Assembly (NCBI GenBank): GCA_005110395.1
Contig: DUDU01000119.1
Coordinates: 1-56,954, forward strand
Direction of reading: 5' to 3'
DNA: 56,954 nucleotides
Origin: Candidatus Melainabacteria bacterium
Lineage (GTDB): Bacteria; Cyanobacteriota; Vampirovibrionia; Caenarcaniphilales; Caenarcanaceae
Part shown: positions 18,938-27,940 of the stretch, piece by piece
Numbering within the stretch: the first letter of the stretch is position 1
How the letters are laid out: each line of letters opens with the position of its first letter
The notes under the pieces: model-generated
Seen by the model: only the letters and a program-made list of their open reading frames with translations
Told to the model about the DNA's origin: nothing
The model's database searches: none
Program-made: the position numbers and the translations under genes

Positions 18938-19657
18938 TCAATCAAGGTTACTTTTTCCTAAATTGCATGAGCTACAAAGAGTTTGTAGATTGATTAATTC
19001 TGTTTGTCCACCTTTACTCCATGCTTTGATATGGTCAATCTGTAAATTAATTGCAGGATTTTTTGCTGGACTAGCACCGCATATTGAGCAAGAAAAGTTA
19101 TCTCTTTTTAAGACTTGATATCTTATCCTCAATGAAGGATCTCTATTTGTTTTAATAGCCGAATTTGATTGAAATTCTAAAGAGTTTCTCGCAAAAAAGA
19201 CCTCCTTATCATTAACGTATGAGATAAATTCTTTAAGAGTGTTTGTCCAAGTACCAAAGCGCCTATGATACGGGCTAGAAGAAATTGTAGAAATACTCTT
19301 CCGATTTACATCCCTTCTAGTTGGTTGTTTACCAAGTTTTTGCCAAATGTTTAGAAGGTTTTCGAAAAGTTGTTCATCAGAATAATCAACGAAGTTGGAT
19401 ATAGTTAACTTAGCTTTCTCCAAAGCATTGTTCCATGTTCCAAATCTTCGTATATAAGTAGAACAATTGTATTGTCCATGTTGAGTATATATGCTCTGTG
19501 TTATTTTCGTGACATTAAGTTTATTTGCGATTATTTGTAAATCTTCAATAAGCTTATGCGAAGATAAAGGCTCATTTGATGGAGGAGAATACTCAAAATA
19601 TTCCATTTTGTATATTGGTGCAAACTTATTGTAAGAATATTTTAATTGATCTAACAC
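18938..19657 (-). CDS. HNH endonuclease with two N-terminal homing-endonuclease-associated repeats
   Basis: Two Y.RRFGTW repeats; C-terminal RY.VLKRDNFSC..CG...LQIDHI..WSKGG....NLQTLC..CN.GK; true start may be the ATG near 19606. Confidence 0.85.
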   Translation of the reverse strand: MLDQLKYSYNKFAPIYKMEYFEYSPPSNEPLSSHKLIEDLQIIANKLNVTKITQSIYTQHGQYNCSTYIRRFGTWNNALEKAKLTISNFVDYSDEQLFENLLNIWQKLGKQPTRRDVNRKSISTISSSPYHRRFGTWTNTLKEFISYVNDKEVFFARNSLEFQSNSAIKTNRDPSLRIRYQVLKRDNFSCSICGASPAKNPAINLQIDHIKAWSKGGQTELINLQTLCSSCNLGKSNLD

Positions 19658-19755
19658 CCTCCGACATACTAACTCCTCACTAATTGGAATATCCTGAAGT
19701 TGCTTTCAAGGCTAGGAATATAAGAGGATCAACCCTAAAGTTTTTAAAGACGATG

Positions 19756-19784
19756 TTGACTTGTACGGCTTTTGTGTGCACAAT
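19756..19784 (+). promoter_or_regulatory. sigma-70-type promoter with overlapping imperfect palindrome (TA autoregulatory operator candidate)
   Basis: TTGACT-N17-CACAAT 30 bp before the antitoxin ATG; TTGTAC...GCACAA imperfect inverted repeat spans the spacer. Confidence 0.5.
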
Positions 19785-19814
19785 GGTAATTGAGAATACT
19801 AAATAAAAAAAGCC

Positions 19815-20078
19815 ATGCAACGAACCGATAGAATTGATTTGAGGGTTTCTCCTGAAGATAAAAAAGCTTTGCAGGCTGTTGCTGAGCTTCAAGGAACCAC
19901 AGTTTCGACTTTCATTTTAAGTAGTGCATTAAAAGCCGCTAATGAAGAACTTGCTGATCGTAGACTCTTTAATTTAACAGCTGGAGAGTGGATAAACTTT
20001 CAGGAAGCGCTTGATGCTCCAATCTGTCCTAAACCTCGCTTAAAGAAACTTCTTTCTGAGCCAGGAGTATTTGATTGA
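19815..20078 (+). CDS. DUF1778 (TacA/AtaR-type) RHH antitoxin
   Basis: RIDLRV..EDK..LQ..A...G..VS.FIL..A, F..ALD.P..P..RLKKLL; 4-bp overlap with the GNAT gene. Confidence 0.9.
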   Translation: MQRTDRIDLRVSPEDKKALQAVAELQGTTVSTFILSSALKAANEELADRRLFNLTAGEWINFQEALDAPICPKPRLKKLLSEPGVFD

Positions 20079-20572
20079 AAAATTTCAGGATAGAAAAACT
20101 CGCTCGCATTCATGAAGTTGAGAATTTTGATTGTGGGCAAGCTGAACTGAACAAGTTTTTATACATCAACGCCTTTAATAATCAACTGGCGGGTAGTTCT
20201 CAAACTTATCTTGCTTTAAGTGATAGTAAAGTAATTGGTTTTTATTCTTTAGTTGTTGGTCAAGTCCTTTATAGTGACGCACCAGAAAGATTGAAAAAAG
20301 GTTTGCCTCGTCATCCAATACCCATTATGTTACTTGCAAGGATGGCTGTTGATAAAAACAGGCAAGGACAAGGAATTGGTGCTGGCTTGCTGAAAGATGC
20401 CATGTTGCGCACTCTGCAAGCTTCTGATATTGCTGGTATTAGAGCATTTATAGTTCACATCAAAAATCAAAATGCAAAGGCTTTTTACGAGCATTTTAAC
20501 TTTCAACCATCACCAACCGATCCATATCATCTATTCATACTTCTAAAGGATATAAAAGCTTTTTTGGAATAA
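20075..20572 (+). CDS. GNAT acetyltransferase toxin (TacT/AtaT-type)
   Basis: FDCG..ELN.FL, P.P..LLARMAVD, QGQGIG, A.AFYEHF.F motifs; directly after DUF1778. Confidence 0.9.
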   Translation: MKNFRIEKLARIHEVENFDCGQAELNKFLYINAFNNQLAGSSQTYLALSDSKVIGFYSLVVGQVLYSDAPERLKKGLPRHPIPIMLLARMAVDKNRQGQGIGAGLLKDAMLRTLQASDIAGIRAFIVHIKNQNAKAFYEHFNFQPSPTDPYHLFILLKDIKAFLE

Positions 20573-20743
20573 CTCTTCTTACTGACCAACTCACCACTAA
20601 GAGGCCCATCTACAATGCTTATTTCCTGTAAGCTTCACACTTTTGACTACTTCTATTTCATCCCATAGATTCAGATTGAAACAATATAGCTACAATTAAC
20701 TTGTAAATCTCATAATAATAGAAACAAATCAGGCTCAGAAAGA

Positions 20744-21943
20744 ATGAAAAGAGTATTTTTGATAGTAATGGACGCATGCGGAGTTGGAGCTATGCCAGAC
20801 TGGGAAAAGTTTGATGATCCGCATGGTGCAAATACTTTGGCTAATGTTTCTAAAGCATGTGATGGACTGCATTTGCCTAATCTTCAGAGACTGGGTTTAG
20901 GGAATATAACCTCAATTCAAGGTGTTGCTCCTAGTGATTCACCTATTGCCCTCTTCGGGAAAGCCGCTGAATTTTCTTTTGGCAAAGATACCACCACTGG
21001 CCACTGGGAAATGGCTGGACTTCCTCTTGATAAGCCGTTTCCTGTTTATCCCAAAGGCTTCCCAAAAGAGATTGTCGATCGGTTTATTGAGCTAACTGGA
21101 TGCGGGGGAATACTCTGCAATGAACCGGCCTCAGGTACAGAAGTATTAGTTCGCTTAGGCGAGAAGCATTTGGAAACTGGGTGGCCTATTATTTATACTT
21201 CTGCTGACAGCGTTTTTCAAATAGCCACAAATGCCGAAAAAATCCAATTGGAAACTTTGTACCATTGGTGCGAAATTGCCCGAGAAATACTTCGCGGTGA
21301 ACACGAAGCCAGCCGCGTTATTGCAAGGCCTTTCACGGGAAAAACGAGTAAAGAATTTCGCCGCCTCTCCGAGCATAGACATGATTACGCAGTCAAACCA
21401 AGAGGACAAACGGTTTTAGATTTTCTCTCAGCGCATAATTGTGAGACCGTTTCGATTGGCAAAATTGCAGATATTTTTTGTGAAGTCGGTATTAAGCGCA
21501 TTATTCCAGGCAAATCAAATGAAGCCTGCTTAGCCAATATACACGAAACCATACTTGAAGAGAGTAATTCCAATAAATTAATTTTTGCGAATTTAGTTGA
21601 AACTGATTCTCATTTTGGTCACCGCAATGATCCAATCGGTTTTGGTGAAGCTCTAGAGAAAATTGATTTGAGTCTTGGTGAATGGATAAAGGATTTGAAG
21701 GATACGGATTTATTAATTTTGACAGCTGATCATGGCTGCGATCCGACTGTGGCTGGAACGGATCATACTCGAGAATTTATTCCGATCTTGGCTTATTCAC
21801 CTTCAATGAAAGAAGGAAAGTCAATTGGTGTCAGAGATACTTTTGCGGATATTGCGGCTAGTACTGTTGATTGGCTCAATCTCTCCACTCGATGGCAAGA
21901 ACAACTTATGCCTGGCAAGAGTTTTTTGAGCAACAATATTTAG
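20744..21943 (+). CDS. deoB: phosphopentomutase
   Basis: LIVMD..GVG, GKDTTTGHWE, YTSADSVFQI, RVIARPF, GHRND, TADHGCDPT..GTDHTRE. Confidence 0.96.
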   Translation: MKRVFLIVMDACGVGAMPDWEKFDDPHGANTLANVSKACDGLHLPNLQRLGLGNITSIQGVAPSDSPIALFGKAAEFSFGKDTTTGHWEMAGLPLDKPFPVYPKGFPKEIVDRFIELTGCGGILCNEPASGTEVLVRLGEKHLETGWPIIYTSADSVFQIATNAEKIQLETLYHWCEIAREILRGEHEASRVIARPFTGKTSKEFRRLSEHRHDYAVKPRGQTVLDFLSAHNCETVSIGKIADIFCEVGIKRIIPGKSNEACLANIHETILEESNSNKLIFANLVETDSHFGHRNDPIGFGEALEKIDLSLGEWIKDLKDTDLLILTADHGCDPTVAGTDHTREFIPILAYSPSMKEGKSIGVRDTFADIAASTVDWLNLSTRWQEQLMPGKSFLSNNI

Positions 21944-22097
21944 AACGAATGCTATTTCACTATAATTTTGCGTAAATAATATATCCTTTAAAAAGTTGCA
22001 AATTTGATTTCACATAACGCTTTGTATCTTGAAACCAGTGTGATCTGCGAATTTTTTAATAGCTGATTTAAAATATGTTTGTATAAGAACTAGTTAG
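21870..22097 (+). repeat. direct repeat unit 1: deoB 3' 74 bp + intergenic region + attI-like site
   Basis: Aligns with 22742-22971 from ATTGGCTCAATCTCTCC to GTATAAGAACTAGTTAG. Confidence 0.9.
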
Positions 22098-22099
22098 TG
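22081..22099 (+). other. attI-like recombination site candidate 1 (GTATAAG-AACTA-GTTAGTG)
   Basis: Same TAA-N7-TTA geometry as the attI1 simple site CCCTAAA-ACAAA-GTTAGGC; similarity between the two repeat units stops right after GTTAG. Confidence 0.5.
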
Positions 22100-22699
22100 A
22101 CAATGCTAAAAGTCGACCGTGCTAACGATAACAAAATGAATAAACCAGTTTATAAACATCCTGACTTTGTAACCCAAACTGACGACAAACGAATCGAAAA
22201 AGAAAATAAACGTTTGTGGCTTTCTTTGAAAATTGACAGCAAATTAAAAGAAGGCTTATTAGTTATTTTAAAAAATCCAAGCAGAGCAACAAAAGACATT
22301 TCAGACAAAACGGTTTTCAATGTTACGAACTATATTTACAAAAACCGAGAAAAATACCGGCAATTTAAGAATATTGGGACAATAACAATATTGAATTTAA
22401 TCCCTTTTTATCAGACATATGCAGAACTCCTTGCCACATCTAACCTAAACATTGTTGACAAAGAAAATATTCAGACTATTAACGACCTAACATCAAAAAA
22501 TGAAAACGTAATTATTGCGTGGGGCGACCACCCAAAAGGACTTTACACAGAATATAAAGAACTCAAAAGGAGAATACTCGACATATTGATCGCAAATAAA
22601 AATAGTGTGTTTTACGTTGACAAACTTTCAAAAAATGGCAACCCTAAACATGGTCAAGTATGGGGTTACTCCAATGAACTAAAAGAATATAAAATATAG
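22097..22699 (+). CDS. DUF1643 domain protein
   Basis: LKNPS.A....D.T, LNL.P, IIAWG, GNPKH motifs; likely start ATG at 22136. Confidence 0.75.
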   Translation: MTMLKVDRANDNKMNKPVYKHPDFVTQTDDKRIEKENKRLWLSLKIDSKLKEGLLVILKNPSRATKDISDKTVFNVTNYIYKNREKYRQFKNIGTITILNLIPFYQTYAELLATSNLNIVDKENIQTINDLTSKNENVIIAWGDHPKGLYTEYKELKRRILDILIANKNSVFYVDKLSKNGNPKHGQVWGYSNELKEYKI

Positions 22700-22741
22700 C
22701 AAATGGACATTTATTTAATCTTCAAAATTGCTTTCACTATT

Positions 22742-22971
22742 ATTGGCTCAATCTCTCCACTCGCTGGCAAGAACAGCTTATGTCTGGCAAGAGTTTTTTG
22801 AGCAAAGATATATAAAATCGTATTGAATCTTCACTAAATTTCCTATAAATAATATATCTTTAAAAAGTTACAAACTTGATTTCACATAACGCTTAGGATA
22901 GTGAAATCAAGTTTGTTTTGCGAATGTTTTTAATAATAGATTTGAGATACGTTCGTATAAGAACTAGTTAG
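22742..22971 (+). repeat. direct repeat unit 2: orphan deoB 3' tail (22742-22815) + intergenic region + attI-like site
   Basis: Encodes WLNLSTRWQEQLMSGKSFLSKDI* versus deoB WLNLSTRWQEQLMPGKSFLSNNI*; 7 mismatches in 74 nt; more diverged downstream but ends in the identical GTATAAGAACTAGTTAG. Confidence 0.9.
22870..22916. repeat. perfect 16-bp inverted repeat (ACAAACTTGATTTCAC-N15-GTGAAATCAAGTTTGT)
   Basis: Read directly from sequence; degenerate in the unit 1 copy. Confidence 0.85.
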
Positions 22972-22973
22972 CT
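22955..22973 (+). other. attI-like recombination site candidate 2 (GTATAAG-AACTA-GTTAGCT)
   Basis: Identical to site 1 up to GTTAG, followed by unrelated sequence leading into the GIY-YIG gene. Confidence 0.5.
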
Positions 22974-22993
22974 GTAATTGTAAAACTATAGTT

Positions 22994-23821
22994 GTGGTAT
23001 TAAACGAACAGACAAAAATGATAACAATACAAGAGTTACTTTTTAATAGGAAACTTGCCAAAACTTGCAAAATCAAACTTGTAAGACACAAAGACAACAG
23101 ACGTGACTTATACAACTTATATCGAACTGACAAAGTAGAATTTTTAGCTTATCAAAACTCTCAAAAAAAAGACGTTTTTAATGGGGTTGACTATATCGTT
23201 TCATTTATCGGTGAAGAAGGGTTTCTTTCAAGATTTATAGGTGTTTACAAACTAACAGGTAAAGAACAAATCGCTGACGAACATTTTGAATATCAAATGG
23301 AAGAAGTAAAAGAACAGTTTGACGACTTAAAAGAACGAGTAATCATACGTTGGGAAAATCCTATTTCTTGGCATCAGTGGATTAAAAACGAAATGGAAGT
23401 ATTAGAAATTCACCCAGGACTTCATTACAAACAATTTACTGACTACTCAGACTTTATTTTAAACTTTGACGAACTAAAAGAAATTGTAACAAAGCAATAT
23501 CGCGACTGGAAAAAAATGCTCTCAGCGACAAAAGGCATTTATTTAATAAGCGACACGAAGACAGGTAAACTGTATGTTGGCTCTGCATATGGAGAAGAAG
23601 GAATTTGGGGGCGATGGACTAGATACGTTTCAACTAACGGACACGGTGACAACAAGACCTTAAAAGAACTTATTGCAAGCGACCCAATTCACGGAAACAA
23701 TTTTCAGTTTTCAATACTAATGTTATTACCTCGAACGATAACTGCAGACGAAGCAATTAAAAAAGAACAACTTTTTAAAAATAAACTCGGAACAAACTCA
23801 TTTGGACTAAACAACAATTAA
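22994..23821 (+). CDS. GIY-YIG nuclease family protein with N-terminal extension
   Basis: GIYLI.D..TGKLYVGSAYG..GIWGRW..Y, GHG.N, FQFSIL, E..FK.KLGT; likely start ATG at 23018. Confidence 0.9.
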   Translation: MVLNEQTKMITIQELLFNRKLAKTCKIKLVRHKDNRRDLYNLYRTDKVEFLAYQNSQKKDVFNGVDYIVSFIGEEGFLSRFIGVYKLTGKEQIADEHFEYQMEEVKEQFDDLKERVIIRWENPISWHQWIKNEMEVLEIHPGLHYKQFTDYSDFILNFDELKEIVTKQYRDWKKMLSATKGIYLISDTKTGKLYVGSAYGEEGIWGRWTRYVSTNGHGDNKTLKELIASDPIHGNNFQFSILMLLPRTITADEAIKKEQLFKNKLGTNSFGLNNN

Positions 23822-23834
23822 CAATGGACGAACT

Positions 23835-23966
23835 TTGGTTTGGCAATAATATGAGGTTCAGTGATTAAATCAAGCTATGTGTTACTATCAAAGCTTCTTG
23901 TTTTTTGACTATTGAAGTGCTTCGAAAACGTCGCCTCCGCCAAGCTACAAACATAAACCGTTAGGC
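23835..23966 (+). repeat. attC-like / gene-cassette-associated intergenic element
   Basis: Terminal arms GGTTTGGC...GCCAAGCT can pair and the element ends in a perfect GTTRRRY core (GTTAGGC, 23960-23966); resembles intergenic repeats I recall from Bacteroidota cassette-like arrays (unverified). Confidence 0.5.
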
Positions 23967-24023
23967 TAATAAGTAAACAACAAAAGCATAAAGAAAAAAT
24001 ATTTGCATTTGCTAAAAAAATAG

Positions 24024-25979
24024 ATGGAAAAAGATTTCAAATTTATTGATTTATTTGCTGGCATTGGAGGTTTTCATATAGCCATGCACAGACTGGGAGG
24101 AGAATGTGTCTTTGCATCTGAAATTGATGAACAAGCAAGATTAACTTATGAAATAAATCACAAAAAAATAAGTCCTAAACTTTTTGAAACTAATAATTTC
24201 AACAAAGACATTCGAGCAATAAACCCAAAAGACATACCTGATTTCGACATACTTTGTGCAGGATTTCCTTGTCAGCCATTCAGTCAAGCAGGTTTCAAAA
24301 GAGGTTTTGCTGACAATCACAATTCTGAAAGAGGAAATTTATTTTTTAATATCGTTGAAATTTTAGACACAAAAAAACCGAAAGCTTTTTTCTTGGAAAA
24401 CGTTCGTGGGCTTAAAACTCATGATAACGGGAAAACATTTAAAGTCATTAGAAACATCATTGAAAATGAGCTTGGATATTCGTTTTATTTTGAAATTATT
24501 CATGCATCAGATTATGGATTACCTCAATTACGACCAAGAGTATTTATGATAGGTTTTAGAGATGAGGGTTTGATGAAAGGTTTTCATTTTCCTCCATCAA
24601 TTCCCTTGAAATTCACAATGGATGAGGTATGGAAAGGGAAATGCTCAAGAAAAATTGGCTTTACAATTAGAGTTGGTGGCAGAGGTTCGAACATTACAGA
24701 CAGACGAAATTGGGATACTTATGAAGTTGACGGAGAATTACGAAGGCTTTCATACCAAGAGGCTCAAAAAATGCAAGGATTCCCAGACGATTTTGAGTTT
24801 CCTGTTAGTCCAACACAAGCCATAAAACAATTAGGAAACAGTGTCGCCGTTGATGCTATCGAAGCAGTTTCAAAAAGCATGTTGGAGCACCTAGAAAATT
24901 TAACACCAAAACAAACGACACTGAGATCGACAAAAAACAAAGGGGAATGGACAGAATTATTAGTCTTTATTAAACTTCTTTTAGATCAAAGACTCTCACT
25001 GTCTGATGAGAAGCTGAATGCAAATAATAATTCATTTAAAATAAATAAGGTAACTACTCATAATTTAGATATTGAATTTTTGTTATTAAATCTTTCAACT
25101 GTTGTTGTAAGAAACAAAGAAAGTAAATTAGAAAAAGAGATAAATGTCTCTGAAATAATTAATACAAAAATCCTTAATTTATTAATAGAAAAGATAAAAG
25201 AAAACGCTCAAACTTTTGATATTCCAGAGTTCAATATTATTCAAGACACACTAGGTTTTAATATAATCAAAGGCGGAAATAGCAATCAAAAGGCTGATAT
25301 TTTATTAGATATTGAAAATAATTTTATTCAAAAAGAAAACGAAGGTTTTGGTATAAAATCGTATTTAGGAAGCAAACCAACTTTGTTAAATGCTTCGGGG
25401 AATACCAATTTCATATTTAAAATCAATGGATTAAATAAAAAATTCCTTGATGATATAAATGCTATTGAAACAGCAACAAAATTAAAAGACAGAATTAATA
25501 AAATTGAAGAACTTGGTGGTGCTTTTGAGTACATTGGTGCCGAAAAAGAAACAATGGAATTTAACTTAAAAATGGTTGATAGTGAAATGCCAAAAATAAT
25601 AGGGCACCTTTTATTGTCTTTTTACAAGGATAGAACTTCATCTTTGAAAAAAATAACAAACTCCATTATTGAAAATATAAATGATGATGAAAAAACACTC
25701 TTTATAAACAAAATCAAAAAGTTATTAGTTGACATTTTACTTGGTTTTTTTGCGGGCACGAAATGGAATGGTAGTTACGAATCAAATGGAACTATTGTTA
25801 TGAAAAACAATGGAGATTGCCTTGGTTTTCACATAATAGAATTGGATAATTTAAAAAATTATTTATTTGAAAACATAAAATTAGACACTCCATCAACAAC
25901 AAGGCATCGATTCGGAAAATTATATTTAGAAAAAGACGGGAATATGTATTTCAAGCTAAATTTACAGTTGCGATTTTAA
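24024..25979 (+). CDS. DNA cytosine-5 methyltransferase fused to HpaII-family restriction endonuclease
   Basis: MTase motifs DLFAGIGG, GFPCQPFS, ENV, PQLRPRVF, QLGNSV in about aa 1-290; then NKGEW.E, KADI, GFGIKSYLGSKPTLLNASG.TNF, DTPSTTRH, YFKLNLQLRF typical of HpaII-family REases; single ORF. Confidence 0.85.
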   Translation: MEKDFKFIDLFAGIGGFHIAMHRLGGECVFASEIDEQARLTYEINHKKISPKLFETNNFNKDIRAINPKDIPDFDILCAGFPCQPFSQAGFKRGFADNHNSERGNLFFNIVEILDTKKPKAFFLENVRGLKTHDNGKTFKVIRNIIENELGYSFYFEIIHASDYGLPQLRPRVFMIGFRDEGLMKGFHFPPSIPLKFTMDEVWKGKCSRKIGFTIRVGGRGSNITDRRNWDTYEVDGELRRLSYQEAQKMQGFPDDFEFPVSPTQAIKQLGNSVAVDAIEAVSKSMLEHLENLTPKQTTLRSTKNKGEWTELLVFIKLLLDQRLSLSDEKLNANNNSFKINKVTTHNLDIEFLLLNLSTVVVRNKESKLEKEINVSEIINTKILNLLIEKIKENAQTFDIPEFNIIQDTLGFNIIKGGNSNQKADILLDIENNFIQKENEGFGIKSYLGSKPTLLNASGNTNFIFKINGLNKKFLDDINAIETATKLKDRINKIEELGGAFEYIGAEKETMEFNLKMVDSEMPKIIGHLLLSFYKDRTSSLKKITNSIIENINDDEKTLFINKIKKLLVDILLGFFAGTKWNGSYESNGTIVMKNNGDCLGFHIIELDNLKNYLFENIKLDTPSTTRHRFGKLYLEKDGNMYFKLNLQLRF

Positions 25980-26147
25980 AACGCTACGATCTAAGTAAGC
26001 AATCTTGAATCAGAGAAAAAAACATGAATGGAGGAAAGAAGTGTTTGAGAGAGGAAATTGAGAGTAGCTCGATCTCTCAACTCTCTGGCAAAAACAGCTT
26101 ATGCCTTGCTGAACCAGAAATAGTGAGCAGCACTGCAAAATCTGCCA

Positions 26148-27230
26148 CTAATTCACAACTAATTCTTGCAATTGTTTTTTCTGATCATAGGCAATCAGAG
26201 ACTGAATAATATTGTCCAAACTGCCTTCAAGCGTTACATCAAGCGAAAAATTCTGTTGCAGCCTATGCTCTGAAAGCCTATTTTCCTTAAAGTTATAAGT
26301 CCTGATTTTCTCAGATCGGTCTCCTGTTCCTACCTGCACAGATCTTGCCGAAGCAATTTTTTCTCTTTGCTCATTAATTTGCATTTCATAAATTTTGGAA
26401 CGCAACAAAGCCATTGCTCTCTCTTTATTTTGATATTGCGAACGCTCTTCCGTACAGAAAATATGAATTCCCGTTGGTTTGTGCACCAAATGAACAGCAG
26501 TTTCCACTTTGTTTACATTTTGCCCACCAGCTCCACCGCTTCGAGTAGTAGAAATTTCAACATCATTTGGCTCAATGTGAACTTCAACATCAGTTACCTC
26601 AGGCATTACAGCTACAGTTGCGGTTGAAGTATGTATGCGTCCAGAAGCCTCAGTCAGCGGAACTCTTTGAACTCTATGAACTCCCGCTTCATATTTGATT
26701 TTGCTATAAACTCTTTCCCCTGAAATTTCCAAGAAAACTTCTTTGTATCCACCAAGCTCAGCTTGAGATGAACTAATTACGCTGGATTTCCAACCTTGAC
26801 TTTCGGCATATCTTAAATACATTTTGAGTAAATCACCCGCAAAGAGCGAAGCTTCATCTCCACCAGTTCCAGCTCTGATTTCTACAATTACATCTTTTTC
26901 ATCATTAGGATCTCTAGGCAATAGCGATAGTTGCAGTTCTTCTTCTAGTCTAATTAAATTTTCTTTGACGCTTTCAATTTCTTCCCTAATAAATTCAAGC
27001 ATTTCAGCATCAGATTCAGAATTAACTAAGCTTTGATTGGACTCTAACTCTGCTTTTTGTTTTTTGTATTCTTGATATCTATTTACCGAAACTTCCAAAT
27101 CTTTTCTGGCCTTGGATAAAGTTTTGATCTGCTCATAATCATTCATCAATTCAGGGTCTGAAATTTTCTCGGTGATTTGATTATAGGTAACCAGAATTTG
27201 TTCTAATTTATTTGTGAGAATCGGATCCAT
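26148..27230 (-). CDS. prfA: peptide chain release factor 1
   Basis: [39 protein letters not shown]; PxT motif. Confidence 0.97.
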
Positions 27231-27295
27231 GATTTTGCTTAATGACTTACTGAGAGAGTGAAAGAATTGATTTTAAAATGGAAGTAGAAGTTTTG

Positions 27296-27940
27296 CTATT
27301 TCTTTTTACCAAAAGGCAATTGTTTATTGAATGCTTCTTTGTTCTTTTCTCTGATTAATTCGAGATATTGATAAGCCTCGAACAAACTACCGCCTTTACC
27401 TGGAGATTTGCAAGCAGCGTAGGCAGCGCAAGCCTGAGACAAAATTGCATTTGGAATTAAATTATCTTCAAATATCTTTCTGCGATTCATCCCCATATAG
27501 AACAAAAAGCCATTTGCACAAATCATGATTAACCAAAAGACAAAGTTAAAATCAGTGAATAGAACTTGAGGTTCACGTGATTGAGGAAAGCGAACAATAA
27601 AAAATATAATTGATGTAAGCAGTAAAAGGCCCCCAACAATCAAATAAAGTAAAACTCTGGGTAAATCTTTGCGCGAAGTTTGAAGAGAATTAGCGGCTTC
27701 AATCGCCATTTGCTGAGCTTCTTCATAAGTCATTTTTCGATTATCCATGCGTTGAATCAATTCTTTGCATATTTCTTTTTCAGAATCCTTTAGAGGCTTT
27801 CTTGTAATCATTGACTGAATACGTTTAATCCAAGAAATTTTGTTTTTTTTTGAAACCTGAATCGCAATCTGCACCCACTCGTCAGGATTAGATTTAACTT
27901 TCTTTGGCTTCTGTTTTATTTGCTGAAACTTTTTACTCAA
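27296..27940 (-). CDS. hypothetical membrane protein (2 TM)
   Basis: 214-aa ORF with two hydrophobic segments, co-oriented with prfA. Confidence 0.6.
   Translation of the reverse strand: MSKKFQQIKQKPKKVKSNPDEWVQIAIQVSKKNKISWIKRIQSMITRKPLKDSEKEICKELIQRMDNRKMTYEEAQQMAIEAANSLQTSRKDLPRVLLYLIVGGLLLLTSIIFFIVRFPQSREPQVLFTDFNFVFWLIMICANGFLFYMGMNRRKIFEDNLIPNAILSQACAAYAACKSPGKGGSLFEAYQYLELIREKNKEAFNKQLPFGKKK

What the first reader, a model, noticed from the sequence alone, without database searches (positions are those of the whole stretch)
21870..26000. Integrase-less, integron-like cassette array of candidate defence genes anchored on the 3' end of deoB
Seen: three co-oriented genes (DUF1643, GIY-YIG, C5-MTase::REase) each begin shortly after a GTTAG core (22093, 22967, 23960). 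The first two cores are the last bases of a repeated unit, and similarity between the units ends exactly after GTTAG. No tyrosine recombinase gene is present in the window. Established: integron cassettes insert at G^TTRRRY and often carry anti-phage genes. Inference: this is a housekeeping-gene-linked capture platform served by an integrase in trans or since lost. It appears to have grown both by cassette insertion and by repeating the whole platform. I do not know of this arrangement being described in this lineage.
Basis: partly seen in the sequence, partly recalled or inferred. Interest (0 to 1): 0.85.

Follow-up and report, generated by a model that had tools for sequence, protein, structure and literature searches.

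The report
Stacked decayed defence islets at deoB
Two tiny mobile islets carrying anti-phage genes were spliced one after the other into the end of the housekeeping gene deoB, and each still holds a fossil of the recombinase gene that once inserted it, so this is a decayed integrative-element stack and not an integron.

Summary
The repeat is real. A 228-nt unit, made of the last 74 nt of deoB plus a ~150-nt element I call E, occurs twice (21870-22097 and 22742-22971, 84% identical). A third, decayed copy of the deoB end lies at 26063-26138, just before prfA.

Three points of the finding fail:
- The third GTTAG (23960) is at chance level.
- There are no attC-like sites.
- The genome has no integron integrase.

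New results:
- The 5' half of E, read on the opposite strand, is the N-terminal remnant of a Xer-like tyrosine recombinase gene.
- E recurs on three other contigs. Every copy sits directly upstream of a different defence-type gene: DUF1643, UzuA plus an HpaII-like restriction-modification enzyme, DndB/DpdB-like plus GIY-YIG, type I restriction-modification, and AbiU/AIPR.
- In lake metagenomes, contigs from 3 of 4 runs join 21869 to 22742. They lack exactly the 872-nt DUF1643 unit, and the breakpoint is inside deoB, 224 nt from the GTT core.

Best reading: site-specific integrations stacked at the deoB 3' end, each bringing a replacement gene end. The recombinase then decayed, and E was kept as the region upstream of the cargo. 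The closest known cases are CIME-type accretion, pseudo-SCC arrays and tycheposon islands. I rate it a new variant of a known kind, of moderate interest.

The parts
20744..21943 (+). deoB (phosphopentomutase). Its last 74 nt (21870-21943) are repeat copy 1 and are probably element-borne.
   Evidence: Pfam Metalloenzyme E 7.1e-34. Family relatives are 59-70% identical. The C-terminus resembles those of relatives.
21870..22741 (+). Islet A (872 nt): replacement deoB end, then E1, then the DUF1643 gene, then a 42-nt tail. It is present or absent between natural strains.
   Evidence: Contigs in 3 of 4 laid runs (X17, X19, X20; three studies) join 21869 to 22742, with 22 nt that fit either side. 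X15 and X17 also hold the DUF1643 stretch.
21944..22097 (+). E1: conserved element ending in CTAGTTAG.
   Evidence: 83% identical to E2 over 142 nt. It is one of 5 copies in the genome.
21946..22013 (-). Recombinase N-terminal fossil inside E1. It has its own 1-nt insertion, and the NYSE codons are in frame.
   Evidence: Frame analysis against P0002.
22136..22699 (+). DUF1643 gene, cargo of islet A. Its function is unknown.
   Evidence: Pfam PF07799 E 1.6e-16. PHROG 3230, unknown function, E 1.8e-14. No PADLOC hit. No solved relative at E below 0.1.
22712..22731 (+). 20-nt tail motif of islet A, also found in the tail of the C52 islet.
   Evidence: 17 of 20 identical. The pattern occurs only twice in the 2.24-Mb assembly. 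Shuffle p is 0.015, uncorrected for 10 comparisons, so this is weak.
22742..26062 (+). Islet B (3321 nt): second deoB end, E2, UzuA, spacer, and the restriction-modification fusion.
   Evidence: Repeat boundaries. In strains lacking A, this deoB end is fused in frame to deoB.
22742..22971 (+). Repeat unit 2: deoB 3' end copy (22742-22817, 91% to copy 1) plus E2 (about 22812-22971).
22797..22889 (-). Recombinase N-terminal fossil inside E2. It carries a stop and a 1-nt deletion at codon 17.
   Evidence: Matches residues 2-32 of P0001 at 61% identity, E 4.8e-5. Frames.
22870..22916 (.). Perfect 16-bp inverted repeat spanning the fossil's start codon. It is specific to E2.
   Evidence: I9. Folding z is -6.1 in E2 and +1.6 at the same place in E1. 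The second arm is deleted in the C50 copy.
23018..23821 (+). UzuA (Uzume, single-gene defence), a GIY-YIG nuclease.
   Evidence: PADLOC PDLC03973 E 1e-93, residues 9-275 of the GTG-started ORF. Pfam GIY-YIG scores 21.8 bits, just under its cut-off of 22.6.
23960..23966 (+). Third 'core', GTTAGGC. It is at chance level and not part of any repeat.
24024..25979 (+). C5-methyltransferase fused to an HpaII-type restriction endonuclease.
   Evidence: Pfam PF00145 E 4.5e-77 and PF09561 E 3.2e-95. All 120 listed relatives of 7742 hits carry both domains at similar length. All 12 organism names given by sources are Bacteroidota, at up to 82% identity.
26048..26086 (.). Interrupted 13-bp palindrome at the islet B / displaced-end junction. 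It is a candidate recombinase core site.
   Evidence: Present in both the MFE and centroid structures on both strands. The whole-region z is only -1.0 and -1.5. The function is inferred.
26063..26138 (+). Copy 3: decayed deoB 3' end, the displaced ancestral end (attR-like).
   Evidence: 61% ungapped over 76 nt. 84% over 43 nt, E 2e-6 against the genome. In the deoB frame, about 13 codons read like the deoB C-terminus before an early stop (read).
26148..27230 (-). prfA, the right-hand core-gene boundary.
   Evidence: Pfam PCRF E 1e-72 and RF-1 E 5.4e-38.

Best explanation
The deoB-prfA interval holds two small integrative islets, stacked by successive site-specific integration (accretion) into the last ~25 codons of deoB.

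Each incoming element carried three things: a substitute deoB 3' end, a Xer-like tyrosine recombinase gene at its edge reading towards deoB, and defence cargo transcribed the other way from a shared intergenic region. The first integration displaced the original deoB end to 26063-26138, where it has decayed. Almost all of the recombinase gene was later deleted. What remains is its first ~25 codons plus the ~86-nt region upstream of its start. Together these form element E, which lies directly upstream of the cargo and probably carries the cargo promoter.

Related islets with the same E sit at three other loci with other defence genes.

Present-day gain and loss of islet A among lake strains happens at the repeat's left edge. 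It is spread by homologous recombination through flanking deoB sequence.

Shown: the repeats, the fossil, the other E loci, and the strain polymorphism. Inferred: the order of events, the promoter role of E, and the exact crossover site.
For: 1. There are three copies of the deoB end. Only the first is fused to deoB in this strain, and the outermost is the most decayed: 100%, 91% and 61%, and E 2e-6 for the third.
2. E contains a recombinase fossil.
- The C43 copy keeps about 127 codons. It is 59% identical (75 of 128, E 7e-53) to an intact 274-aa recombinase, P0002.
- Its best NCBIfam match is XerA-type (55.5 bits), then XerD (36). All matches are far below their cut-offs because it is a fragment.
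- Translated matches to the fossil lie on the minus strand of the window at 22797-22889 and at C50.
- One search shows the N-terminal reading in all 5 copies, with different lesions.
- The C43 fossil ends at the stop of miaB, so it too abuts a housekeeping gene's 3' end.
3. All 5 E copies are followed within about 40-80 nt by a co-oriented start codon. In four it opens the cargo gene (DUF1643, UzuA, DndB/DpdB-like, AbiU/AIPR). At C43 it opens a 39-codon ORF, and hsdM starts about 270 nt after E.
4. Natural polymorphism. Contigs of 3 of 4 runs from different studies skip exactly 21870-22741. The right-hand piece has no differences from unit 2. The left-hand piece has 8-17 differences; those listed cluster at 21625-21751.
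5. Cargo is foreign. The restriction-modification fusion is up to 82% identical to Bacteroidota proteins, whereas DeoB is at most 70% identical within the host's own family.
6. The pattern matches published accounts of accretion of decayed elements (passages read in PMC5704250, and bioRxiv 10.1101/2020.12.28.424599).
Against: - No intact recombinase of this family is in the assembly, which is 84% complete. None was found in 300 genomes of the class (one match, 24% identity). Activity therefore cannot be shown.
- No duplicated target-gene end was found at the other three E loci. Two of those islets run off their contigs.
- The two tandem units share the same junction between the deoB end and the truncated fossil. 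So the truncated module existed before the two islets diverged, and at least one islet arrived without a recombinase gene of its own.
- The E copies are mosaic. In the fossil part, U2-C50 identity is 0.91 but U1-U2 only 0.71, while the deoB ends of U1 and U2 are 91% identical. This needs extra recombination or gene conversion.
- The A-less haplotype is the same in all three runs, so it records one event, and that could be a deletion rather than an ancestral state.
- The promoter scan finds no sigma-70-type site at the 3' end of E. Over 21800-26300 there are 14 sites against 18.9 +/- 5.0 expected.
- deoB-prfA synteny is not conserved in the family (1 of 8 relatives, and on the same strand there). 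No empty site was available for comparison.
Confidence: 0.65

Rival explanations
1. Live non-autonomous mini-cassettes. Each unit (replacement gene end, E with its own promoter, and one or a few defence genes) is still excised as a small circle and re-inserted in trans. The recombinase would be a Xer-like enzyme encoded elsewhere in the population or by the host's own Xer proteins. On this reading the array is a working capture platform, a functional analogue of an integron built from different parts.
For: - Islet A is cassette-sized (872 nt) and polymorphic in nature, with the breakpoint inside the 22 nt that are identical at the repeat's left edge.
- Both tandem units share the truncated-fossil junction, so at least one moved without its own recombinase.
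- Loose ends (X19 at 22096, X15 at 22820) point to further E copies with other flanks in other strains.
- An interrupted palindrome lies at the islet B / displaced-end junction.
- A 20-nt tail motif is shared by islet A and the C52 islet.
- The genome has two full-length Xer-type genes on C68 and C12.
Against: - Only one haplotype lacking A was seen, so only one event is recorded.
- The SNP cluster left of the junction fits import by homologous recombination just as well.
- No circle junction can be told apart from the tandem junction in contig data.
- The left arms at the three junctions are only loosely alike (read).
- The tail motif's significance is weak (p 0.015 before correction).
- No recombinase partner has been identified.
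Confidence: 0.15
2. No site-specific step at all. E is a dispersed promoter-like intergenic repeat (a 'mobile promoter'). The tandem units arose by unequal crossing-over and illegitimate recombination, and the strain difference is a RecA-mediated deletion between direct repeats.
For: - E is found at 5 places upstream of unrelated genes.
- The copies are mosaic, which suggests gene conversion.
- No target duplication is seen at the other three loci.
- The repeat is long enough (228 nt, 84% identical) for occasional homologous deletion.
Against: - It does not explain why half of E is a recombinase N-terminus, nor why the C43 copy continues for ~127 codons up to the miaB stop.
- It does not explain a third, deoB-only, decayed gene end at the far side of the array.
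- The observed joint leaves a pure unit 2 (0 differences), so the crossover lay in the first 22 nt. Three other identical runs of 17-22 nt exist further along the repeat.
Confidence: 0.13
3. This is an integron-like array (a CALIN or a degenerate integron) in which cassettes insert at G^TTRRRY of an attI-like site at the end of E.
For: - The geometry resembles an integron. A tyrosine recombinase fossil lies divergent from co-oriented cargo. Strong conservation ends about 86-100 nt upstream of the recombinase start, near a GTT.
- Five different cargoes follow E.
Against: - No RYYYAAC...GTTRRRY pair lies in 21800-26300 on either strand. The whole window has 5 such pairs per strand, none here.
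- The two repeat-borne cores fail GTTRRRY.
- Spacers show no attC-like fold.
- No IntI over cut-off is in the genome.
- P0002 is 274 aa and matches TIGR02249 in two stretches at 164.5 bits (cut-off 265). It scores higher as XerA (213.6), XerD (180.1) and XerC (174.8).
- The strain-level breakpoint is 224 nt from the core.
- Weak homology runs past GTTAG.
- IntegronFinder and HattCI themselves could not be run.
Confidence: 0.04

Closest known systems
CIME / ICE-IME accretion at the 3' end of a housekeeping gene (ICESt1/ICESt3 family at fda in Streptococcus thermophilus; three-step model in PMC5704250 section 2.3, passage read)
   Same: - Site-specific integration into a gene's 3' end.
- The element decays to an integrase-less remnant that keeps its att-type repeats.
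- A further element integrates beside it, giving tandem units separated by copies of the target gene's end.
   Different: - No conjugation or mobilisation gene remnants are present, so descent from an ICE or IME is not shown.
- The units are far smaller (0.87 and 3.3 kb).
- The recombinase fossil is Xer-like.
- The same fossil-plus-intergenic module recurs at four loci in front of different cargo.
- That CIMEs of that family carry restriction-modification genes is recalled, not checked.
Tycheposon islands of Prochlorococcus (bioRxiv 10.1101/2020.12.28.424599; passages read)
   Same: - Cyanobacteria-related host with a small genome.
- Successive integrations at one site push older elements inward.
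- Fragmented integrases and partial target copies mark older events.
- Populations are heterogeneous for single elements.
- Cargo is defence or adaptation genes.
   Different: - Tycheposons target tRNA genes and leave partial tRNAs. Here the target is a protein-coding gene whose C-terminus is replaced.
- No replication or packaging module is present.
- The host is a non-photosynthetic, Vampirovibrionales-like lake bacterium. This is judged only from the best named DeoB matches, at about 50% identity.
SCC and pseudo-SCC arrays at the 3' end of rlmH (orfX) in staphylococci (recalled; only the search listing shows DUF1643 mentioned in SCC papers)
   Same: - Tandem cassettes at the 3' end of a housekeeping gene.
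- Each insertion rebuilds the gene end.
- Recombinase-less members are served in trans.
- DUF1643 genes are mentioned in papers on such elements.
   Different: SCC uses large serine recombinases (Ccr) and short direct repeats. Here the fossil is a tyrosine recombinase, and 74 nt of the gene end are carried by the element.
Prophages 21 and e14 in icd of E. coli (recalled, not checked)
   Same: Integration inside the 3' end of a protein-coding gene, with the element supplying an alternative 3' end and the displaced original end left at the far junction.
   Different: Those are whole prophages with an intact integrase. There is no tandem stack and no decayed mini-islets.
Mobile integrons and CALINs
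   Same: - A recombinase divergent from co-oriented cargo.
- Single-gene-sized units.
- Defence genes as cargo.
   Different: No IntI, no attC, no GTTRRRY at the two repeat junctions, each unit brings its own upstream region, and the observed breakpoint is inside deoB.
pdif modules of Acinetobacter plasmids and IMEX elements (recalled, not checked)
   Same: Small gene modules thought to move by Xer-type recombination, with no recombinase gene of their own.
   Different: Those are flanked by recognisable 28-bp XerC/XerD sites. No dif-like pair was identified here, and none was searched for with a model.

Membership tests
Integron (complete, In0 or CALIN) | IntI-type integrase with the IntI-specific extra domain | tested here: not met
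   TIGR02249 searched over the own genome gives one hit of 22.6 bits (cut-off 265), and that hit is the C43 fossil. The full-length relative P0002 scores 164.5 bits in two stretches and scores higher as XerA, XerD and XerC.
Integron (complete, In0 or CALIN) | attC sites: imperfect palindromes bounded by RYYYAAC and GTTRRRY at cassette 3' ends | tested here: not met
   0 such pairs 45-140 nt apart in 21800-26300 on either strand. The spacer 23822-23966 folds at z +1.3 and +1.5. IntegronFinder and HattCI were not available. The core consensus used is recalled.
Integron (complete, In0 or CALIN) | Cassette junctions at the G^TT of the core | tested here: not met
   The natural indel breaks at 21869/22742. 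The repeat-borne cores are GTTAGTG and GTTAGCT. Homology fades gradually after GTTAG.
Integron (complete, In0 or CALIN) | Promoterless cassettes expressed from a platform promoter next to the integrase gene | not testable with these tools
   E lies upstream of every cargo, but it is repeated with each unit. No RNA data were examined, and the sigma-70 scan is uninformative.
CIME-type accretion array (decayed integrative elements in tandem) | Direct repeats that contain the 3' end of the target gene at each element boundary | tested here: met
   Three copies, at 21870, 22742 and 26063.
CIME-type accretion array (decayed integrative elements in tandem) | Integration genes lost or decayed while the boundaries are kept | tested here: met
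   Recombinase fossils of about 25 codons in both units, with frameshifts and a stop. No PF00589 hit on the window's contig.
CIME-type accretion array (decayed integrative elements in tandem) | Descent from an ICE or IME (relaxase, oriT or conjugation remnants) | tested here: not met
   The ORFs of 21870-26147 are only DUF1643, UzuA and the restriction-modification fusion. I therefore call it CIME-like, not a CIME.
CIME-type accretion array (decayed integrative elements in tandem) | Excision or cis-mobilisation by a recombinase supplied by a partner element | not testable with these tools
   Only a presence/absence polymorphism of islet A is seen.
Xer-like simple tyrosine recombinase (for the fossil) | N-terminal core-binding (SAM-like) domain followed by the catalytic domain, with no arm-binding domain | tested here: inconclusive
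   The fossil covers positions 2-125 of the 263-position XerA model at 55.5 bits. Pfam Phage_int_SAM_1 gives only E 0.086. The catalytic half is deleted. The relative P0002 (274 aa) scores 213.6 bits on XerA, just under the cut-off of 220.
Uzume defence system (for 23018-23821) | Full-length match to the UzuA profile | tested here: met
   PDLC03973 E 1e-93, profile positions 2-278 of 278. Anti-phage activity was not tested.

The most novel reading that the evidence does not exclude
E-linked units form a previously undescribed cassette system. They would be minimal mobile units of 0.9-3 kb, each carrying a replacement end for a housekeeping gene, its own promoter region (a domesticated recombinase 5' fossil) and one defence system. 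A Xer-like recombinase supplied in trans would insert and excise them, so a streamlined freshwater bacterium can shuffle single defence genes at several gene ends. This would work like an integron but be built from unrelated parts.
Probability: 0.15. Interest if true: 0.75.

Novelty: new variant of a known kind. Interest (0 to 1): 0.45.

Why it matters
The finding replaces an attractive but wrong label (integron) with a testable history. It shows how an uncultured, small-genome lake bacterium, seen in contigs of runs from 16 studies, acquires and loses single anti-phage genes at the end of a housekeeping gene.

The unusual part is element E. A recombinase-gene fossil plus its upstream region has been kept at about 70-90% identity in front of five different defence-type loci. 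Either that region is under selection as a shared promoter or regulatory module, or the islets are still being moved in trans. Either outcome would be a useful addition to how defence islets are organised outside model bacteria.

DUF1643 in such a position is also a candidate for a defence or mobile-element function test.

Tried and rejected
- Rfam scan of 20500-27500 at E up to 1: only two sub-threshold snoRNA-model hits at 26102-26193, taken as chance.
- Consensus RNA fold of the five E copies: -8.96 kcal/mol with an unfavourable covariation term (+1.28). Two of 20 predicted pairs have a both-sides change. This gives no support for a structured RNA.
- Sigma-70 promoter and terminator scan of 21800-26300: 14 promoter-like sites against 18.9 +/- 5.0 expected, and 1 terminator-like site against 1.8. 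Uninformative.
- E in relatives by DNA search. 0 of 40 relatives matched. In 400 genomes of the class there were only short matches of 22-71 nt, all far shorter than E or the fossil; I take them as chance matches in AT-rich sequence.
- E pattern in viral contigs: 0 matches.
- E pattern in metagenome contigs: 2 contigs. Their ORF translations match those of the C52 and C43 loci in nearly every ORF (one residue differs in one short ORF), so they add no diversity.
- Recombinase relatives. In 300 class genomes, one match at 24% identity. In viral contigs, 3 loci at 40-42% identity, not followed up.
- A weak own-genome hit at C106 proved to lie in rpsO and was dropped as false.
- Target-gene end duplications at the miaB, GST-like and C50 loci: none found.
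- deoB neighbourhood in 8 family genomes: all differ. prfA is adjacent in 1 of 8, on the same strand, so no empty site was available.
- The MTase::REase fusion was considered as a curiosity and rejected. It is a large family annotated as HpaII family restriction endonuclease.
- Not tested: whether homologues of the three genes elsewhere are flanked by attC-like sites.
- Supplementary files of the papers were not opened. Element tables in the tycheposon and IME papers might list protein-gene targets that I could not see.
- Novelty searches: 'DUF1643'; 'cis-mobilizable / accretion / integrase'; 'Vampirovibrionia / defense systems / integrase'; 'tycheposons'; 'integrase / pseudogene / defense island / tandem / 3 end'. 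None of the listed titles or abstract openings describes this arrangement in this lineage. I did not read those papers in full.

Full report
**Anatomy.** On the + strand, deoB (20744-21943) is followed by three genes: a DUF1643 gene (22136-22699), a GIY-YIG gene (23018-23821) and a C5-methyltransferase::HpaII-endonuclease fusion (24024-25979). prfA converges from the minus strand (26148-27230). PADLOC identifies the GIY-YIG protein as UzuA over the full profile (E 1e-93) and the fusion as a type II MTase plus REase. DUF1643 has no PADLOC hit. It matches only a PHROG of unknown function and has no solved relative at E below 0.1.

**The repeat.** The repeat finder and a whole-genome DNA search confirm a 228-nt direct repeat, 21870-22097 versus 22742-22971 (84% identical, E 4.7e-60). 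Each unit is the last 74 nt of deoB (91% identical between copies) followed by about 150 nt that end in CTAGTTAG.

A third copy holds only the deoB part. It lies at 26063-26138, 61% identical ungapped and 84% over 43 nt (E 2e-6 against the 2.24-Mb assembly). Read in the deoB frame, it encodes about 13 codons resembling the deoB C-terminus and then stops early. This is what a displaced, decaying gene end looks like.

**Checks on the integron-type features.**
- GTTAG is not enriched: 50 in the window against 72.3 +/- 8.9 in shuffles.
- Only the third core (23960) fits GTTRRRY. The two repeat-borne ones do not.
- No RYYYAAC...GTTRRRY pair 45-140 nt apart exists in 21800-26300 on either strand.
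- The spacer before the MTase gene folds worse than shuffles (z +1.3 and +1.5) and is unrelated to the repeat.
- The genome has no integron integrase. The single TIGR02249 hit scores 22.6 bits against a cut-off of 265.

**The element E is dispersed.** The non-deoB part of the unit recurs on three other contigs of the same genome. Counting both window copies, all 5 copies are followed by a co-oriented start codon about 40-80 nt after the conserved CTAG. In four copies that codon opens the first cargo gene; at C43 it opens a 39-codon ORF.

| E copy | What follows |
|---|---|
| Window, unit 1 | DUF1643 |
| Window, unit 2 | UzuA, then the restriction-modification fusion |
| C52 | DndB/DpdB-like DGQHR protein plus a GIY-YIG protein |
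| C43 | 39-codon ORF, then type I hsdM about 270 nt after E; a HEPN/nucleotidyltransferase pair and hsdS on the matching metagenome contig |
| C50 | AIPR/AbiU-like protein |

E was not found in 40 relatives, in 400 genomes of the class beyond short matches of 22-71 nt, all far shorter than E or the fossil, which I take as chance matches in AT-rich sequence, or in viral contigs. The two metagenome contigs that hold it are the same C52 and C43 loci.

**E is half a recombinase gene.** The only hit to the integron-integrase model was next to the C43 copy of E, on the opposite strand. Translating there gives about 127 codons of a tyrosine recombinase N-terminal half.
- Its best NCBIfam model is XerA-type (55.5 bits), then XerD (36), XerC (26) and IntI (25.5).
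- It is 59% identical (75 of 128, E 7e-53) to an intact 274-aa protein from a public assembly, P0002.
- P0002 scores XerA 213.6, XerD 180.1, XerC 174.8 and IntI 164.5 in two stretches. It is a simple Xer-like recombinase, not IntI.

The first ~25 codons of this gene are the reverse complement of the 5' half of E. Translated matches to the fossil fall on C50 (79% identity) and on the window's minus strand at 22797-22889 (61%, E 4.8e-5).

Frame analysis of all five copies against the N-terminus of P0002 shows the recombinase start codon at the complement of the end of the conserved GATTTCAC block, and different lesions in each copy:
- a 1-nt deletion at codon 17 in unit 2, C50 and C43;
- a different 1-nt insertion in unit 1;
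- truncation after codon 17 in C52;
- an added stop in unit 2.

The copies are truncated at different depths. C52 is shortest, then the two window units (2-3 nt after the deoB stop), then C50. C43 is longest and runs to the stop codon of miaB.

So E consists of a recombinase 5' fossil of about 70 nt plus the ~86-nt region upstream of the recombinase start. The cargo leader follows.

**The boundary on the cargo side.** Mean pairwise identity is 0.81 in the last 40 nt of E (shuffles 0.59) and 0.53 at +5..+35 after CTAG (shuffles 0.50). One pair reaches 0.77. Conserved columns persist for about 13-17 nt past GTTAG. The boundary is therefore a fading module edge near a possible transcription start (a TATAAA/G hexamer lies 8-13 nt upstream; this is inference). 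It is not a sharp crossover point.

**Natural variation.** The stretch is held by contigs of 20 of 23 listed runs, from 16 studies of lake and freshwater metagenomes. I laid 4 of these 23 runs, chosen from four studies and not flagged as possible sources of the window.
- Contigs in 3 of the 4 (X17, X19, X20) join 21869 directly to 22742. They skip 872 nt, which is exactly unit 1 plus the DUF1643 gene, with 22 nt that fit either side.
- The piece to the right of the joint has 0 differences from the window over up to 2.1 kb.
- The piece to the left has 8-17 differences. Eleven of those listed lie at 21625-21751. The tool did not show 11 further rows of its table.
- X15 and X17 also hold the DUF1643 stretch.
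- The three A-less contigs share the same variant letters at all but two of the listed deoB sites, so they record essentially one haplotype and one event.

Two points follow. Gene content does switch in nature, and it switches inside deoB at the left edge of the repeat, 224 nt from the GTT core. The SNP cluster beside the joint looks like a homologous-recombination tract, by which the A-bearing version spread between strains.

Loose ends in the same call indicate further E copies with other flanks in other strains (X19 at 22096, X15 at 22820). I did not use those letters further.

**Mosaicism.** The deoB ends of units 1 and 2 are 91% identical, and both units share the same junction to the truncated fossil. 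Yet in the fossil part, unit 2 is 0.91 identical to C50 and only 0.71 to unit 1. In the intergenic part all pairs fall at 0.71-0.83. The truncated module therefore predates the two islets. At least one islet arrived without its own recombinase, and E copies have exchanged sequence.

**Candidate recombination sites (inference).**
- The three junctions share a core around 21874-21890, 22746-22762 and 26067-26083. That pattern occurs only at these three places in the genome.
- At the islet B / displaced-end junction the element's end forms an interrupted 13-bp palindrome with this core (26048-26086). This is the kind of dyad a Xer-type enzyme binds.
- A 20-nt motif 11 nt before unit 2 recurs only in the tail of the C52 islet (p 0.015 uncorrected).

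**Origin of cargo and host.**
- The restriction-modification fusion has thousands of relatives. All 120 listed carry both domains. All 12 organism names given by sources are Bacteroidota, at up to 82% identity.
- The host's DeoB is 59-70% identical to the eight other genomes of its family. It is about 46-53% identical to the best named records, which include Vampirovibrionales/Melainabacteria MAGs.
- Downstream neighbours of deoB differ in all eight relatives, so no empty site could be compared.

**Interpretation.** The simplest history runs in four steps:
1. A small element carrying a Xer-like recombinase, a substitute deoB end and defence cargo integrated into the deoB 3' end and displaced the original end to 26063.
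2. The recombinase gene was deleted down to its first codons.
3. A second, related, already truncated unit carrying DUF1643 was added at the rebuilt site.
4. Variants now spread by homologous recombination through deoB.

This is the accretion-of-decayed-elements pattern described for CIMEs (PMC5704250, section 2.3, passage read) and for tycheposon islands in Prochlorococcus (bioRxiv 10.1101/2020.12.28.424599, passages read). It is also the pattern I recall for pseudo-SCC arrays at rlmH and for phage 21/e14 in icd.

Two things are less ordinary: the very small unit size, and the retention of the fossil-plus-intergenic module E in front of five different defence-type loci.

**What remains open.**
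- Whether the units still move in trans.
- Whether E is a promoter.
- What DUF1643 does.

Noticed in passing
window 22797-22889 (-); C50:2103-2186; C43:1619-2032: In 3 of 5 fossil copies, the 1-nt deletion at recombinase codon 17 lies in a heptamer of the X_XXY_YYZ type that is in phase for a -1 ribosomal slip. Such a slip would restore the recombinase frame. Units U1 and C52 keep the unshifted reading, so a plain deletion is the simpler explanation.
   Followed up: partly
window 24024-25979: The single-chain C5-methyltransferase::HpaII-endonuclease fusion belongs to a large family. All 120 listed relatives carry both domains. All 12 organism names given by sources are Bacteroidota, at up to 82% identity, so the cargo was acquired horizontally.
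   Followed up: yes
window 18938-20572: Just upstream of deoB lie an HNH endonuclease with homing-endonuclease repeats (18938-19657, -) and a TacA antitoxin / GNAT-toxin pair (19815-20572, +). The toxin gene carries a cluster of 16 strain differences at 20138-20323 in all four laid runs.
   Followed up: no
window 21625-21751: A cluster of 11 listed single-base differences lies in the last 320 nt of deoB in the contigs of all four laid runs; X17 also holds a window-like contig over part of it. The right-hand piece of the A-less contigs has none over 2.1 kb. This looks like a recombination tract brought in with islet A.
   Followed up: partly
L099 11830-14523 (same locus as C43): In the type I restriction-modification islet after E there is first a 39-codon ORF of unknown nature. 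A HEPN-like / nucleotidyltransferase-like pair then sits between hsdM and hsdS; this is judged from the translations only and was not scanned.
   Followed up: no
window 22712-22731 and C52:13330-13349: A 20-nt motif (17 of 20 identical) occurs only twice in the assembly, each time in the tail of an E-type islet. It may mark a shared right end.
   Followed up: partly
C135:1-1787 (L003): A short contig holds the C-terminal end of one tyrosine recombinase, a small helix-turn-helix-like ORF, and the start of a second recombinase-like ORF in tandem. It is unrelated in sequence to the E fossil: no match with P0001 at E up to 10.
   Followed up: no
window 22870-22916: Unit 2 alone has a perfect 16-bp inverted repeat with a 15-nt loop across the fossil's start codon (z -6.1). 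Unit 1 lacks it (z +1.6), and C50 has the second arm deleted.
   Followed up: partly
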